From sequence record PZ049713.1: a stretch of 59,621 nucleotides of DNA. The stretch is one strand, 5' to 3'. Positions 1-16,146 of this stretch are shown here, in pieces. Below the pieces are notes generated by a model. The model did no database searches, was not told the origin of the DNA, and was given only the letters and a program-made list of their open reading frames with translations. The position numbers and the translations under genes are program-made. Each line of letters starts with the position of its first letter. The first letter of the stretch is position 1. Source of the DNA: a phage.

Positions 1-100
1 ATTCCAATATAAGGCAACCATGCCCAAGCTATATGCGATGTGATAAAAGAAATATCCTGGGAACAGCACCGAATAGAAAGATGCCTGACGCGCTTCTCAT
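1..100 (-). pseudogene. Truncated 5' fragment of the Wzy-like gene (copy of 14986-15082) with 1-bp insertions
   Basis: Reverse complement of 14986-15082 with extra bases (aaggcaacc vs aaggaacc; cagcaccgaat vs cagcacgaat). Start codon cat at 98-100. Confidence 0.8.
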
Positions 101-242
101 ATACCCATCCTTGTAATAACAGCTAAAGAGTCGCTGCTCAGGAAGTCGTGGATTATGCCCGAATGGGGCGACTATCACCACCCGATTGAGACATTCGTTT
201 ACGTCCCGCCAGTCGGGTTTTTTTTCGTCTGAAGGATTACCC

Positions 243-720
243 ATGACCCTCTCTGAAATACGGAGCGCGCCATAGCGCCCGCTCTCGCGCTGCTGCCTGC
301 GCGAATGTCGAGCCGAGAGGCAGAGATCATGCTGCTTGCTATTACTCAGCAGGAAGATCCGGAACAGCGCGCCGCCAGTGGCCGACCGGGCCGGCCCGCG
401 GGCTGCTTCAGTTCGAGCAGGGCGGTGGTGTGCGTGGTGTGCTGAGCCACCCTTCGAGCCGCGACCACGCCCGTCGAGTGTGTGCTGCTCGAGGCGTTGC
501 GCCTGAGCCTGCCGCCGTGTGGGCTGCGCTCGAGCGTGACGACGTGCTGGCGTTCGCCTTCGGCCGGCTTTTGCTATGGACTGACCCGAAGCCTCTGCCA
601 GGCGAGCATGACGCTGCGGGCGGCTGGGATCTGTACCTGCGTACATGGCGCCCTGGAAAACCGCATCCGGATCGCTGGCCAGCCCGATTCGCCGCGGCCG
701 TGCGTGAGGTGATGCGATGA
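243..720 (+). pseudogene. Endolysin copy, frameshifted
   Basis: ATG at 243 gives MTLSEIR, then a G3->G2 deletion (acggagcgcg vs acgggagcgcg) causes an early stop. C-terminal 96 aa are preserved in ORF 430-720. Confidence 0.85.
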
Positions 721-1251
721 CCGCCTGGCTGAAGTTCGTGCCCAGCTGGGCCTGGTGGGTGCTGGCTCTGGCTGCCGTGGCCGGCGGGCAGCAGATCCGG
801 GGCGCTATCGGCGCAGTCTGACGCCGCGCAGGCGCAGGCCGATCTGGCCTCCTACCGCACCGAAGTCAGCGAGCGCGACCGCCGCGCTGCGCTGTTCGTC
901 ATTCAGGAAAACCAGCGGCGCCAGGCCGCGACGGAGAAAGCAGATGCAGAGGCACAGGAACAACTGGCTGCGGCGCGTAGCGATGCTGAGCGCGCTGGTA
1001 GTGCTCTTGAGCGGCTCAAGTTGCGCCTCGCAGCATCTGAGCAGCGCAGTCGTGACGCCGGCAATGCCATCACTGCCCAGCTCAGCCAGGCAGCCGAGGA
1101 CGCCGCCAGAGTGCGAGCCGACTTGTTCGGCCGGATTGGAACGGCTGCTCAACTCTATGCCGCTGTCGCCGATGACCGAGGAATAGCTGGGTCGGCGTGT
1201 GAGAAAGCTTATGACGCGGTGAGGGGAATCGAGATTGCCCGGACGGGCTGA
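717..1251 (+). pseudogene. Rz-like spanin copy, frameshifted
   Basis: Starts MTAWLKFVPSWAWW as in 13852-14367(-). An insertion near 800 breaks the frame. The C-terminal part reappears in ORF 1021-1251. Confidence 0.85.
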
Positions 1252-1412
1252 GATAGGGGGAACCTCGGGCAATTTTTGGGCAGGGTACGGTTTTTCGAGG
1301 GCCCGTGAGGGCATGCAGCCCAGTAAATACGGGAGCATACCCCGCCAAAACCCCCATTAGAACTGCATGGTGATGTTGGCGGTAGAAATCAAGAGGCTTT
1401 ATCTCGCGGGTT

Positions 1413-13652: not shown

Positions 13653-13851
13653 CACTACACCTCTGAAACCCGCGAGATAAAGCCTCTTGATTTCTACCGC
13701 CAACATCACCATGCAGTTCTAATGGGGGTTTTGGCGGGGTATGCTCCCCGTATTTACTGGGCTGCATGCCCTCACGGGCCCTCGAAAAACCGTACCCTGC
13801 CCCAAAAATTGCCCCGAGATTTGCCCCCTATCTCAGCCCGTCCGGGCAATC
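13653..13851. other. Probable attP region between int and the lysis genes
   Basis: Noncoding, directly downstream of int. Repeats aaattgcccc (13806-13815), gagatttgccccc (13816-13828) and inverted gggcaatctc (13844-13853). The core could not be pinned. Confidence 0.5.
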
Positions 13852-14367
13852 TCAATTCCCCCTCACCGCGTCATAAGCTTTCTCACACGCCGACCCAGCT
13901 ATTCCTCGGTCATCGGCGACAGCAGCATAGAGTTGAGCAGCCGTTCCAATCCGGCCGAACAAGTCGGCTCGCACTCTGGCGGCGTCCTCGGCTGCCTGGC
14001 TGAGCTGGGCAGTGATGGCATTGCCGGCGTCACGACTGCGCTGCTCAGATGCTGCGAGGCGCAACTTGAGCCGCTCAAGAGCACTACCAGCGCGCTCAGC
14101 ATCGCTACGCGCCGCAGCCAGTTGTTCCTGTGCCTCTGCATCTGCTTTCTCCGTCGCGGCCTGGCGCCGCTGGTTTTCCTGAATGACGAACAGCGCAGCG
14201 CGGCGGTCGCGCTCGCTGACTTCGGTGCGGTAGGAGGCCAGATCGGCCTGCGCCTGCGCGGCGTCAGACTGCGCCGATAGCACCCGGATCTGCTGCCCGC
14301 CGGCCACGGCAGCCAGAGCCAGCACCCACCAGGCCCAGCTGGGCACGAACTTCAGCCAGGCGGTCAT
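13852..14367 (-). CDS. Rz-like i-spanin
   Basis: N-terminal TM WAWWVLALAAVAGG followed by a long coiled coil. Its start overlaps the endolysin stop. Confidence 0.8.
   Translation of the reverse strand: MTAWLKFVPSWAWWVLALAAVAGGQQIRVLSAQSDAAQAQADLASYRTEVSERDRRAALFVIQENQRRQAATEKADAEAQEQLAAARSDAERAGSALERLKLRLAASEQRSRDAGNAITAQLSQAAEDAARVRADLFGRIGTAAQLYAAVADDRGIAGSACEKAYDAVRGN
13899..14102 (-). CDS. Possible embedded Rz1-like o-spanin lipoprotein
   Basis: +1-frame ORF wholly inside Rz: MLSALVVLLSGSSCAS, then Pro-rich TPAMPSLPSSARQPRTPPECEP. The lipobox is non-canonical. Confidence 0.45.
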   Translation of the reverse strand: MLSALVVLLSGSSCASQHLSSAVVTPAMPSLPSSARQPRTPPECEPTCSAGLERLLNSMLLSPMTEE

Positions 14368-14843
14368 CGCATCACCTCACGCACGGCCGCGGCGAATCGG
14401 GCTGGCCAGCGATCCGGATGCGGTTTTCCAGGGCGCCATGTACGCAGGTACAGATCCCAGCCGCCCGCAGCGTCATGCTCGCCTGGCAGAGGCTTCGGGT
14501 CAGTCCATAGCAAAAGCCGGCCGAAGGCGAACGCCAGCACGTCGTCACGCTCGAGCGCAGCCCACACGGCGGCAGGCTCAGGCGCAACACCTCGAGCAGC
14601 ACACACTCGACGGGCGTGGTCGCGGCTCGAAGGGTGGCTCAGCACACCACGCACACCACCGCCCTGCTCGAACTGAAGCAGCCCGCGGGCCGGCCCGGTC
14701 GGCCACTGGCGGCGCCGCTGTTCCGGATCTTCCTGCTGAGTAATAGCAAGCAGCATGATCTCTGCCTCTCGGCTCGACATTCGCGCAGGCAGCAGCGCGA
14801 GAGCGGGCGCTATGGCGCGCTCCCGTATTTCAGAGAGGGTCAT
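14364..14843 (-). CDS. Endolysin, lytic transglycosylase (SLT)-like
   Basis: ATG at 14843 has an aagga RBS. ...LLAITQQEDPEQ...ARGLLQFEQGGG is SLT-like. Adjacent to the spanin. Confidence 0.8.
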   Translation of the reverse strand: MTLSEIRERAIAPALALLPARMSSREAEIMLLAITQQEDPEQRRRQWPTGPARGLLQFEQGGGVRGVLSHPSSRDHARRVCAARGVAPEPAAVWAALERDDVLAFAFGRLLLWTDPKPLPGEHDAAGGWDLYLRTWRPGKPHPDRWPARFAAAVREVMR

Positions 14844-14985
14844 GGGTAATCCTTCAGACGAAAAAAAACCCGACTGGCGGGACGTAAACGAATGTCTCAA
14901 TCGGGTGGTGATAGTCGCCCCATTCGGGCATAATCCACGACTTCCTGAGCAGCGACTCTTTAGCTGTTATTACAAGGATGGGTAT

Positions 14986-16146
14986 ATGAGAAGCGCGTCA
15001 GGCATCTTTCTATTCGTGCTGTTCCCAGGATATTTCTTTTATCACATCGCATATAGCTTGGGCATGGTTCCTTATATTGGAATCTTCACAATCACTCTAG
15101 CCATTGCGTGTGGCTACTTCCTAATTAAGCTATTTATTGGACTTCTGAGAAATCCTTACCCGATAGTGTCATTTGCAGATGCATGCTTTGTTCTGTTAAT
15201 AATCACGCTGTCTGCAATTACCATCGTGAACCACACGCTTAATGACGGTGCGTATATCGATACGGACGGACTTGTGTTTAGCGCATCAATCATCGTATCG
15301 ATGACTGGGCTTTATTTTTTAGGGAGAAATATAGTTCTGGAGCAGCAAAAGAAATCGACGCTTGCAGCGCTGGCTTTACTAGCCGGATACCTCGCATGCG
15401 CGATAATTTTCTATCAAGAAAACGGCGGCTATATGCTGCTCCCCACTCCGAGCGAATCGGCGCCGGAGCCCTCAAATTATCAGGGCCTTGCCCGCTCGGT
15501 TATGTACTCGCTGATTTTCACTTTGCCCTTTATCAAGTCTGGGCTCATGAGATTCGTCTACGCTGCAGCCAGCCTAGCCTGCTTGTATTTGATCGGTTCA
15601 AGAACGGACTTCGCACTTTGCGCTATGGTGTTCCTGGTTTCGATGCTGATAAGGTCAAGCATTAGAGGCGCAGTTATGGCATATGGATTGATGATACTCG
15701 CCTTACCAGCCGCGCTTTATTTTCTCTACCAGTCCGACAGATTCGCGATCAGCTCCACCGACCCGTCACTTGTTGCGCGTGGAATATTCACCGAATCATC
15801 AATAGACGGAATTTCGGGTTCACCTATCCTTGGTGATTACCTCGGGCAGGTTAGAGACTTCGGCGACATTGGAAGTTACGCGCACAACGCTCTTTCCATG
15901 TACCAGCAATTCGGACTAATACCGTTCATTGCTTACATTGCATTCATTATTTTTAGCTTATTGATCGCAATCAAGTCTCTCGCTATAAATCGTCGATCTC
16001 CATACACAGAGCTTCTGCTGCATCTTTCCGTCGTTGCGCTGGCCGGGGTCTTGGTGGCGAAGTCAATACTCTGGACGACCCCAGTACTGGCCTGGGGTCT
16101 TGCGGTGAGCATAAGGAGAAATCGCTACGCTTGTATTAGGCCGTAA
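14986..16146 (+). CDS. wzy: O-antigen polymerase/ligase family (Wzy_C-like) polytopic membrane protein; lysogenic-conversion moron
   Basis: About 10 hydrophobic segments. C-terminal SYAHNALSMYQQFGLIPFIAYIAF matches the Wzy_C signature. Visibly AT-rich codon usage. Opposite strand to the flanking late genes. Confidence 0.75.
   Translation: MRSASGIFLFVLFPGYFFYHIAYSLGMVPYIGIFTITLAIACGYFLIKLFIGLLRNPYPIVSFADACFVLLIITLSAITIVNHTLNDGAYIDTDGLVFSASIIVSMTGLYFLGRNIVLEQQKKSTLAALALLAGYLACAIIFYQENGGYMLLPTPSESAPEPSNYQGLARSVMYSLIFTLPFIKSGLMRFVYAAASLACLYLIGSRTDFALCAMVFLVSMLIRSSIRGAVMAYGLMILALPAALYFLYQSDRFAISSTDPSLVARGIFTESSIDGISGSPILGDYLGQVRDFGDIGSYAHNALSMYQQFGLIPFIAYIAFIIFSLLIAIKSLAINRRSPYTELLLHLSVVALAGVLVAKSILWTTPVLAWGLAVSIRRNRYACIRP

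What the first reader, a model, noticed from the sequence alone, without database searches (positions are those of the whole stretch)
1..15082. 7.5-kb fold-back (snap-back) palindrome joined at a 10-bp microhomology inside the SSB-like gene
1-7477 is the reverse complement of 7590-15082, and only 112 bp (7478-7589) is unique at the centre. The junction is precise. gatcagcagc (7468-7477) is both the last 10 nt of the inverted arm (pairing with gctgctgatc at 7590-7599) and the first 10 nt of the direct genome sequence (equal to 58684-58693). The native SSB-like gene therefore carries a 10-bp inverted repeat 112 bp apart, and a strand switch at that hairpin explains the whole structure. The two arms are not equivalent. 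The right arm has intact genes. The left arm has many small differences, often homopolymer length changes: G3 to G2 near 262, C4 to C3 near 4835, aaggaacc to aaggcaacc near 14. These break the endolysin, spanin, integrase, HNH and DfrB-like genes and remove a start codon (7424-7426). The damage is uneven: about 2500-4480 is almost clean (identical 238-aa phosphatase, one aa change in the 222-aa ORF), whereas 1-2500 and 4480-7477 are riddled. The homopolymer bias and the position at the window start favour a technical origin (palindromic long-read chimera, MDA snap-back, unpolished low-coverage contig end). A real fold-back defective phage genome cannot be excluded from sequence alone.
Basis: partly seen in the sequence, partly recalled or inferred. 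Interest (0 to 1): 0.7.

Follow-up and report, generated by a model that had tools for sequence, protein, structure and literature searches.

The report
Fold-back nanopore read at contig end
The 7.5-kb palindrome is real in the sequence, but it is almost certainly a single fold-back nanopore read stuck onto the end of an otherwise normal 51.2-kb temperate Pseudomonas/Stutzerimonas phage genome, so it is an assembly artefact rather than a feature of the phage.

Summary
Window 1-7477 is the reverse complement of 7590-15083 at 98.5% identity. A 112-nt unique centre (7478-7589) lies between a perfect 10-bp inverted repeat. The native genome is a 51,216-bp unit (7468-58683), and 58684-59604 repeats 7468-8388 exactly.

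New evidence: the last 17 nt of the window match the end of the Oxford Nanopore rapid-kit (MuA transposase) adapter at 16 of 17 positions. The record is therefore a nanopore contig that ends at a read start.

All 107 arm differences behave as read errors on one strand:
- 61 are indels and 46 are substitutions.
- C-runs of 4 or more are shortened in 10 of 23 cases, G-runs in 0 of 10.
- A>G occurs 25 times, T>C 5 times.
- 87 sites show only the right-arm state in 81 related loci, and none shows only the left-arm state.

Thirteen related loci carry the native junction, and none of 85 loci has a fold-back. The inverted repeat is one of 15 such repeats in the genome, which is the chance level, and it lies away from the likely ori, the terminase genes and int/attP.

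The exact 10-nt microhomology, the native loop and the lack of adapter at the junction point to a DNA-level strand switch. Whether that happened in vitro or in the cell cannot be told from sequence. Interest is low. The clean genome is 7468-58683.

The parts
1..7477 (-). Left (inverted) arm. An error-laden reverse-complement copy of 7590-15083. It is not part of the phage genome.
   Evidence: 98.5% identity, 46 substitutions and 61 indel events; 87 of 107 differences show only the right-arm state in relatives, 0 only the left; 13 of 14 genes differ from the right-arm copy, most through frameshifts.
7468..7477 (.). Left half of the 10-bp inverted repeat (GATCAGCAGC). It is the microhomology shared by the end of the inverted arm and the start of the native sequence.
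7478..7589 (+). 112-nt unique centre, the loop of the fold-back. It is native sequence encoding the Gln/Pro-rich linker and DDDVPF tail of the 112-aa protein.
   Evidence: 7468-7767 = 58684-58983, 100%. (translation). (the 132-nt single strand folds at -39 kcal/mol, with the 10-bp stem extended imperfectly).
7590..7599 (.). Right half of the inverted repeat (GCTGCTGATC), overlapping the Leu-Leu-Ile-stop end of the gene.
   Evidence: Kept in relative L002 and 9 of 10 in L001.
7590..15083 (+). Right arm, the native and well-polished copy. It carries the SutA-RBD-like, HNH, DfrB-like, phosphatase, excisionase and integrase genes on the + strand and the spanin and endolysin-like genes on the - strand.
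   Evidence: 0 gaps against short-read assemblies (100% over 303 nt with L084 and L085).
7468..58683 (+). One native genome unit of 51,216 bp. This is the sequence that should be kept.
   Evidence: spacing 51,216. Gene content.
58684..59604 (+). 921-nt exact repeat of 7468-8388. It is the overlap of a circular or concatemeric genome and shows the native junction 58683|58684.
   Evidence: Native order confirmed in 13 related loci over the full 300-nt junction probe.
59605..59621 (-). Remnant of the ONT rapid-kit MuA cargo/adapter. The reverse complement TTTCGTGCGCCGCTTGA matches ...TTTCGTGCGCCGCTTCA at 16 of 17 positions. It marks the 5' start of a nanopore read running leftwards.
   Evidence: Adapter sequence taken (bioRxiv 10.64898/2026.04.18.719403; Mu end in PMC10997766).
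58480..58818 (+). Intact 112-aa 'SSB-like' gene that holds both halves of the inverted repeat. The copy at the fold-back (up to 7602) lacks its first 204 nt.
   Evidence: phrog_18187, function unknown; homologues in Stutzerimonas/Pseudomonas, some named SSB by JGI.

Best explanation
The window is a nanopore (MuA rapid-chemistry) long-read contig of a circular or concatemeric 51,216-bp temperate siphovirus genome. Its nearest isolate is Pseudomonas phage PS-1, and the host is probably Stutzerimonas or Pseudomonas.

One fold-back (palindromic) read, or very few, was laid down as the first read of the contig. Its dangling arm became window 1-7477. That arm had little or no other read support, so it kept read-level errors, while the rest was polished to consensus quality.

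The fold-back strand arose at the DNA level. A minus-strand 3' end ...GCTGCTGATC, ending at 7468, paired with GATCAGCAGC 122 nt upstream on a minus strand. This could be the same strand (snap-back) or a displaced sister strand. A polymerase then extended it, making plus-sense sequence from 7600 onward.

What is shown: the structure, the platform, the error nature and polarity of the arm differences, the native arrangement in relatives, and the chance-level nature of the inverted repeat.

What is inferred: that only one or a few reads support the arm, and that the left arm was the second arm through the pore. Second arms of inverted duplications are known to be mis-called and shortened starting at the junction. 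Where the strand switch happened (whole-genome amplification or PCR before sequencing, or in the infected cell) is undetermined. My split is about 55% in vitro, 30% in vivo and 15% signal or consensus effect.
For: - Platform: 59605-59621 is the reverse complement of the ONT rapid/MuA adapter end, 16 of 17 (sequence). No other adapter 11-mer occurs in the window, and none at the junction.
- Error nature: 61 indels against 46 substitutions. 72% of deletions fall in runs of 2 or more, against a 42% background.
- Strand asymmetry: C-runs of 4 or more are shortened in 10 of 23 cases, G-runs in 0 of 10 (Fisher p = 0.015). A>G occurs 25 times and T>C 5 times (p = 0.003). 16 of 25 insertions are G. 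AT>GC occurs 36 times and GC>AT 4 times.
- Polarity: 87 of 107 sites show only the right-arm state in 81 related loci, 0 only the left. Relatives align to the right arm with 0-6 gap openings where they show 24-42 to the left arm.
- The right arm has no gaps against short-read assemblies. Both direct copies, 7468-8388 and 58684-59604, are identical.
- The native junction is present in 13 related loci over the full 300-nt probe, including 4 contigs that encode the identical 112-aa protein. None of the 85 loci has the fold-back or any inverted self-match of 200 bp or more.
- The inverted repeat is 1 of 15 repeats of 10 bp or more with loops up to 200 nt. Simulations give 12.8 +/- 3.5. Its hairpin energy per nt is ordinary among them.
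- The junction is about 11 kb from the iterons at 47440-47527, about 23 kb from TerL and about 6 kb from int.
- 74 of 107 errors lie in the 2.5 kb next to the junction, and the left arm is 17 nt shorter. This matches the reported behaviour of nanopore reads after an inverted junction (PMC7229812).
- Inverted chimeras with 2-21 nt of complementarity between segments less than 10 kb apart are the main product of phi29 amplification (PMC1855051). They are known to put false inverted duplications into long-read assemblies (PMC6218980).
Against: - No reads are available, so the coverage of 1-7467 and the number of junction-spanning reads are unknown.
- PCR-free rapid kits have no polymerase step. 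Without prior amplification, a DNA-level fold-back would have to come from the cell, which favours a real but rare molecule.
- The error pattern is patchy. 2478-4977 is nearly clean and 978-1477 has a burst, which a simple decay from the junction does not explain.
- The adapter remnant proves that a read starts at the right end. It does not prove that this read is the fold-back read.
Confidence: 0.85

Rival explanations
1. A real but rare in vivo fold-back molecule. During rolling-circle replication, or after a break and 5' resection, a minus-strand 3' end snapped back or switched template at the 10-bp inverted repeat. The result was a hairpin-capped or inverted-dimer molecule that one nanopore read captured. 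The left-arm differences would still be read errors, and the contig would still misrepresent the genome.
For: - The exact 10-nt complementarity, the native 112-nt spacer and the absence of adapter at the junction require a DNA-level event.
- PCR-free rapid chemistry has no polymerase step.
- The same architecture (short inverted repeat plus spacer) defines in vivo fold-back inversions and ODIRA template switching (PMC3907307; PMC10766183 and PMC4689423).
- The phage carries a Rad52-type annealing protein and replicates from its own origin.
Against: - The MuA adapter end is shared with the rapid PCR kit, and phi29 amplification before library preparation cannot be excluded.
- In vitro inverted chimeras with these exact properties are very common.
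- Nothing marks this inverted repeat as special.
- No relative shows such a structure.
Confidence: 0.28
2. No DNA-level event took place. A template strand and its complement (or two reads) passed through the pore back to back. Polishing with normal reads then rewrote the messy centre into native sequence, and the switch point settled on the inverted repeat because both versions agree there.
For: - Inverted-repeat chimeras are the most common false chimeras in nanopore data (PMC13141652).
- The 132-nt region is partly self-complementary, so alignments could run through it.
- The densest cluster of errors (15 events in about 120 nt) lies directly beside the junction.
Against: - Such reads have their centre at a fragment end with adapter in between. 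No adapter 11-mer is present.
- The 112-nt centre is a perfect native copy bounded by an exact 10-bp repeat, with a chance probability of about 1e-6.
- Rapid-kit libraries show far fewer such chimeras than ligation libraries (0.17% against 2.26%).
Confidence: 0.12
3. A stable, heritable rearranged (defective or snap-back) phage genome in which the left arm has diverged by mutation from the right arm.
For: The palindrome is in the record.
Against: - The differences are mostly indels in homopolymers and are strongly strand-asymmetric.
- None of them is seen in 81 related loci.
- The record would be 59.6 kb against 41-58 kb for the whole contigs of relatives.
- The record contains both the fold-back junction and the native junction (58683|58684), as expected for a chimeric tip on a normal genome.
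- There is no protelomerase or other hairpin-end machinery among the roughly 40 ORFs scanned.
Confidence: 0.03

Closest known systems
Inverted (palindromic) chimeras of phi29 multiple displacement amplification, as seen in long reads (Lasken & Stockwell 2007, PMC1855051; Pacasus, PMC6218980)
   Same: The second segment is inverted. The two segments lie close together in the genome (112 nt apart). The 3' end primed on 10 nt of complementarity, within the reported range of 2-21 nt. A false inverted duplication ended up in a long-read assembly.
   Different: There is no proof that this DNA was amplified. The only platform evidence is an ONT MuA rapid-kit adapter.
Degraded base calling of the second arm of inverted duplications in nanopore reads (Spealman et al. 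2020, PMC7229812)
   Same: One arm is good and the other is full of miscalls and missed bases. The errors start at the junction, and the poor arm is slightly shorter.
   Different: The error rate here is only 1.5% and is patchy, so the arm was probably partly corrected. Signal-level data are not available.
In vivo fold-back inversion and ODIRA template switching at short inverted repeats (PMC3907307, PMC10766183)
   Same: A short inverted repeat sits at the boundary of a single-copy spacer and an inverted duplication. The geometry is that of a hairpin-capped intermediate.
   Different: Those cases are heritable rearrangements confirmed in many molecules. Here there is one record, with error-type differences between the arms and the native junction in the same record.
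Template-complement follow-on chimeras (nanopore) and missed SMRTbell adapters (PacBio)
   Same: Palindromic reads that give hairpin-like contig ends.
   Different: Their centre is a fragment end with adapter and no microhomology. Here the centre is 112 nt of native sequence between an exact 10-bp repeat, and the adapter found is ONT, not PacBio.

Membership tests
MDA/WGA inverted chimera | The two joined segments are in inverted orientation | tested here: met
MDA/WGA inverted chimera | The segments lie less than 10 kb apart in the genome | tested here: met
   112-nt spacer. Criterion from PMC1855051.
MDA/WGA inverted chimera | 2-21 nt of complementarity at the priming site | tested here: met
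   10 nt exact.
MDA/WGA inverted chimera | The DNA was amplified with phi29 before sequencing | not testable with these tools
   The source record was not found in any collection.
Nanopore template-complement (follow-on) chimeric read | The centre of symmetry is at a fragment end, with no unique spacer | tested here: not met
   A 112-nt native spacer is present.
Nanopore template-complement (follow-on) chimeric read | Adapter sequence or a signal gap at the junction | tested here: not met
   No adapter 11-mer at the junction. Signal could not be tested.
PacBio missed-SMRTbell palindrome | SMRTbell adapter at the centre, on the PacBio platform | tested here: not met
   No SMRTbell 11-mer. An ONT MuA adapter is at 59605-59621.
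Hairpin-telomere (protelomerase, N15-type) linear phage genome | A perfect palindromic telomere site at the fold, without a spacer | tested here: not met
   A 112-nt asymmetric centre lies inside a coding sequence.
Hairpin-telomere (protelomerase, N15-type) linear phage genome | A protelomerase gene | tested here: not met
   None among the roughly 40 ORFs scanned with Pfam. The phage has a tyrosine integrase and an excisionase instead. The scan did not cover every small ORF.
In vivo fold-back inversion / ODIRA product | A short inverted repeat bounding a single-copy spacer at the inversion junction | tested here: met
   Criterion from PMC3907307.
In vivo fold-back inversion / ODIRA product | The junction is present in many independent molecules, or is heritable | not testable with these tools
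   This needs raw reads or wet-lab work. The junction is absent from 85 related loci.
Snap-back defective phage genome | The arms are true copies, or diverge by ordinary mutation | tested here: not met
   The differences are indel-rich, homopolymer-biased and strand-biased, and are unique to the left arm.

The most novel reading that the evidence does not exclude
The fold-back strand was made in the cell. A rolling-circle leading strand, or a resected end, of this temperate phage switched template at a chance 10-bp inverted repeat inside the Gln-codon-rich tail of the small SSB-tip protein gene. A PCR-free single-molecule read then caught the resulting hairpin or inverted-dimer by-product. That would be a direct sighting of short-repeat-mediated fold-back formation in phage replication.
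Probability: 0.25. Interest if true: 0.3.

Novelty: not a real feature. Interest (0 to 1): 0.1.

Why it matters
The value is practical. The record overstates the genome by 8.4 kb: 7.5 kb of false inverted duplication, a 921-nt overlap and 17 nt of adapter. It also carries 13 false gene copies that differ from the originals, most of them frameshifted, including an integrase, an endolysin-like gene, a spanin, an HNH gene and a DfrB-like gene. These would inflate pseudogene counts, confuse prediction of genome ends and packaging, and suggest a hairpin or defective genome that is not there. The clean genome is 7468-58683, circularly closed. If the fold-back molecule did form in vivo, it would be one more example of a known template-switch or snap-back process, not a new mechanism.

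Tried and rejected
- Finding the source record failed, so read depth and library type stay unknown. The junction 38-mer is absent from IMG/VR. The shared 38/45-mer is absent from GTDB genomes and JGI metagenomes. There was no hit in PLSDB. The phage collection holds only PS-1, at 81-86% identity over 18-32% of the queries. The phosphatase and TerL proteins are not on record.
- I first read the last 17 nt as end noise. I rejected this once they matched the MuA adapter end.
- A special hairpin was rejected. The 132-nt region folds well (z = -4.4), but that is expected for any region chosen by its inverted repeat. Its energy per nt is ordinary among the 15 repeats, and the repeat count is at chance.
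- A methylation-motif cause for the errors is not supported. The phage has a C5-methylase, but no palindromic site is significantly enriched at error positions. The only strong signal is C-runs.
- The SSB identity of the 112-aa protein was not confirmed. Pfam gave nothing, PHROG gave unknown function, and the PDB sequence search gave nothing. The AlphaFold model has a confident 65-residue beta domain but no Foldseek hit below E = 0.28.
- A link to the replication origin, packaging site or attachment site was rejected on distance.
- A de Bruijn-graph hairpin contig was rejected, because the arms differ by 1.5% with indels.

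
Full report
**1. What is in the sequence.**
- Window 1-7477 is the reverse complement of 7590-15083. Identity is 98.5%, with 46 substitutions, 36 deletion events (42 nt) and 25 single-base insertions.
- Between the arms lie 112 nt (7478-7589) that are unique within the palindrome.
- GATCAGCAGC (7468-7477) and GCTGCTGATC (7590-7599) form a perfect 10-bp inverted repeat.
- From 7468 the sequence equals 58684 onward for 921 nt, with no extension to the left. The native genome is therefore a 51,216-bp unit (7468-58683), and the record runs 921 nt into a second pass.
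- The native junction 58683|58684 and the fold-back junction are both in the record.
- A 10-nt inverted match at a random junction has a probability of about 1.4e-6 (0.26^10, from the composition).

**2. The platform.**
The last 17 nt (59605-59621) match neither other copy of that region and occur nowhere else in the window. Their reverse complement, TTTCGTGCGCCGCTTGA, matches 16 of 17 positions of the 3' end of the Oxford Nanopore rapid-chemistry MuA cargo...CGTTTTTCGTGCGCCGCTTCA. I recalled the full adapter from memory. Its end is printed in bioRxiv 10.64898/2026.04.18.719403, and the Mu end TGAAGCGGCGCACGAAAAACGCG is printed in PMC10997766.

The right end of the window is therefore the 5' start of a transposase-tagged nanopore read running leftwards. 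No other adapter 11-mer (ONT ligation, ONT rapid or SMRTbell) occurs anywhere, including the junction.

**3. The genome.**
Pfam and PHROG scans show a temperate siphovirus. The genes found are:
- a CI-like repressor (48916-49590);
- a replication initiator (47033-47974, minus strand) with four 22-bp iterons at 47440-47527;
- a DnaC-like loader and a DnaB helicase;
- a Rad52-type annealing protein, gp157 and a 112-aa protein (58480-58818);
- then SutA-RBD-like, HNH, DfrB-like, phosphatase, excisionase and integrase (12471-13652) genes;
- spanin and endolysin-like genes on the other strand;
- a beta-helix tailspike, a tape measure protein, a capsid protein, a portal and TerL (34692-35978, minus strand).

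The nearest isolate is Pseudomonas phage PS-1, at 81-86% identity over 18-32% of the two query stretches. Homologues of the 112-aa protein are mostly from Stutzerimonas and Pseudomonas.

The junction lies about 11 kb from the iterons, about 23 kb from the terminase and about 6 kb from int/attP. It coincides with no programmed DNA end or origin.

**4. The arm differences are read errors.**
- Indels outnumber substitutions, 61 to 46. 72% of deletions lie in runs of 2 or more, against a 42% background.
- The changes are strongly strand-asymmetric. On the plus-sense strand, C-runs of 4 or more are shortened in 10 of 23 cases and G-runs in 0 of 10 (Fisher p = 0.015). For runs of 3 or more the figures are 15 of 110 and 2 of 83 (p = 0.009). 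A>G occurs 25 times and T>C 5 times (p = 0.003). AT>GC occurs 36 times and GC>AT 4 times. 16 of 25 insertions are G. Mutation of duplex DNA would not treat a C-run and a G-run so differently, but reading one strand would.
- Polarity is clear. In 81 related loci fetched from IMG/VR, 87 of the 107 sites show only the right-arm state, none shows only the left-arm state, one shows both and 19 are uninformative.
- Every relative aligns to the right arm with 0-6 gap openings where it shows 24-42 to the left arm.
- Short-read assemblies match the right arm without a single gap, and two are 100% identical over 303 nt.
- Of the 14 right-arm ORFs compared in the left copy, the phosphatase is identical, the 222-aa ORF has one amino-acid change, and most of the other 12 carry frameshifting indels.

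**5. The fold-back is unique to this record.**
- Four contigs from other samples encode the identical 112-aa protein, all in the native order gp157 - 112 aa - SutA-like.
- Thirteen related loci span 285 nt or more of a 300-nt probe across the native junction. None spans the fold-back probe beyond the repeat.
- None of the 85 loci has any inverted self-match of 200 bp or more.
- The inverted repeat is kept in relatives (10 of 10 in L002, 9 of 10 in L001). It lies in coding sequence (Asp-Gln-Gln-Gln and Leu-Leu-Ile-stop), which explains its conservation.
- It is one of 15 perfect repeats of 10 bp or more with loops up to 200 nt in the genome. First-order Markov simulations give 12.8 +/- 3.5.
- The 132-nt single strand folds well (-39 kcal/mol), with the stem extended imperfectly by CAG/CTG-type codons. 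Its energy per nt is unremarkable among the 15.

**6. How the fold-back arose.**
Read in the direction of the adapter-bearing strand, the minus strand runs down to 7468 and ends ...GCTGCTGATC. It then continues as plus-sense sequence from 7600. That is what results if this 3' end paired with GATCAGCAGC (the complement of 7590-7599) on a minus strand and was extended by a polymerase. The template could be the same strand, giving a snap-back with a 112-nt loop, or a displaced sister strand.

The exact 10-nt pairing, the perfectly native loop and the absence of adapter argue against a mere concatenation of template and complement reads. They also argue against an assembler mis-join or a missed PacBio adapter.

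This is the typical product of phi29 amplification: 85% of chimeras are inverted, with 2-21 nt of complementarity, mostly between segments less than 10 kb apart (PMC1855051). Such products are known to put false inverted duplications into long-read assemblies (PMC6218980). The same geometry also defines in vivo fold-back inversions and ODIRA (PMC3907307; PMC10766183).

PCR-free rapid kits contain no polymerase step. The origin therefore depends on whether the DNA was amplified beforehand, or whether the PCR version of the kit was used. The sequence cannot tell.

**7. Why the left arm is worse.**
The arm hangs off the contig as a tip, and normal reads fit the right arm better, so it received little or no consensus support.

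In addition, 74 of the 107 events lie in the 2.5 kb next to the junction, 15 of them in the first ~120 nt, and the arm is 17 nt shorter. Nanopore reads that cross an inverted junction lose accuracy and skip bases from the junction onward, because the strand re-pairs behind the pore (PMC7229812). This fits if the left arm went through second, which is the direction of the read that starts at the right end. It remains an inference: the adapter shows a read start, not which read carried the fold-back. The clean stretch at 2478-4977 and the burst at 978-1477 are not explained by a simple gradient, and partial polishing is the likely cause.

**8. Verdict.**
The left 7.5 kb is a chimeric-read tip on a normal genome, not a property of the phage (confidence 0.85). 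A stable defective fold-back genome is very unlikely (0.03). A real but rare in vivo molecule behind the read remains possible (about 0.25-0.3) and would be a known kind of event. The usable genome is 7468-58683. Interest is low.

Noticed in passing
59605-59621: The last 17 nt are a remnant of the Oxford Nanopore rapid-kit MuA adapter (16 of 17 match, reverse strand). The record was not fully adapter-trimmed, and its right end is a read start.
   Followed up: yes
47440-47527: Four tandem 22-bp iteron-like repeats (GAGCTGCACCCCGTTC core) lie inside the replication-initiator gene 47033-47974 (minus strand). This is probably the phage origin, arranged as in lambda O/ori.
   Followed up: partly
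9945-10598: A 217-aa phage protein whose C-terminal 57 residues match the R67/DfrB-type dihydrofolate reductase domain (PF06442, E = 1e-20). This fold gives trimethoprim resistance on plasmids. The N-terminal 160 residues have no match.
   Followed up: no
7647-7940: A 97-aa early protein matches the RNA-polymerase-binding domain of Pseudomonas SutA (PF20661, E = 3e-8). It may be a phage modulator of host RNA polymerase.
   Followed up: no
58480-58818: The 112-aa 'SSB-like' protein has a confident ~65-residue beta domain, a disordered Gln/Pro linker and a bacterial-SSB-type tip (DDDVPF). It has no Pfam, PDB-sequence or Foldseek match, so it is not a recognisable OB-fold SSB. It is common in Stutzerimonas/Pseudomonas prophages (205 homologues).
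   Followed up: partly
43779-44480 (minus strand): A C-5 cytosine DNA methyltransferase gene. Phage DNA may carry 5mC, which could add to nanopore errors. No methylation-type motif was enriched at the error sites.
   Followed up: partly
8364-9011; 31204-32184 (minus strand); 39581-40816 (minus strand): Three homing-endonuclease-type genes in one genome: HNH_3, GIY-YIG with an HTH, and HNH. The GIY-YIG gene sits between the capsid and Mu-F-like morphogenesis genes.
   Followed up: no
15000-17000: A low-GC block (0.50 against 0.60-0.64) holds a 463-aa ORF with a weak O-antigen-ligase/Wzy_C hit (E = 0.002, below Pfam's cutoff), next to a beta-helix tailspike. It may be a lysogenic-conversion module acquired from elsewhere.
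   Followed up: no
13653-13850; loci L006, L008-L011: Many IMG/VR relatives are contigs that end 3-9 bp after the integrase gene. These are prophage borders, so attP should lie just downstream of int. The window crosses this point, so it shows the excised or replicating form.
   Followed up: no
30864-30905 and 38755-38796: Two 42-nt direct repeats (79% identical) have the look of intrinsic terminators (AAAAAGCCCCG...stem). They are probably module-end terminators.
   Followed up: no
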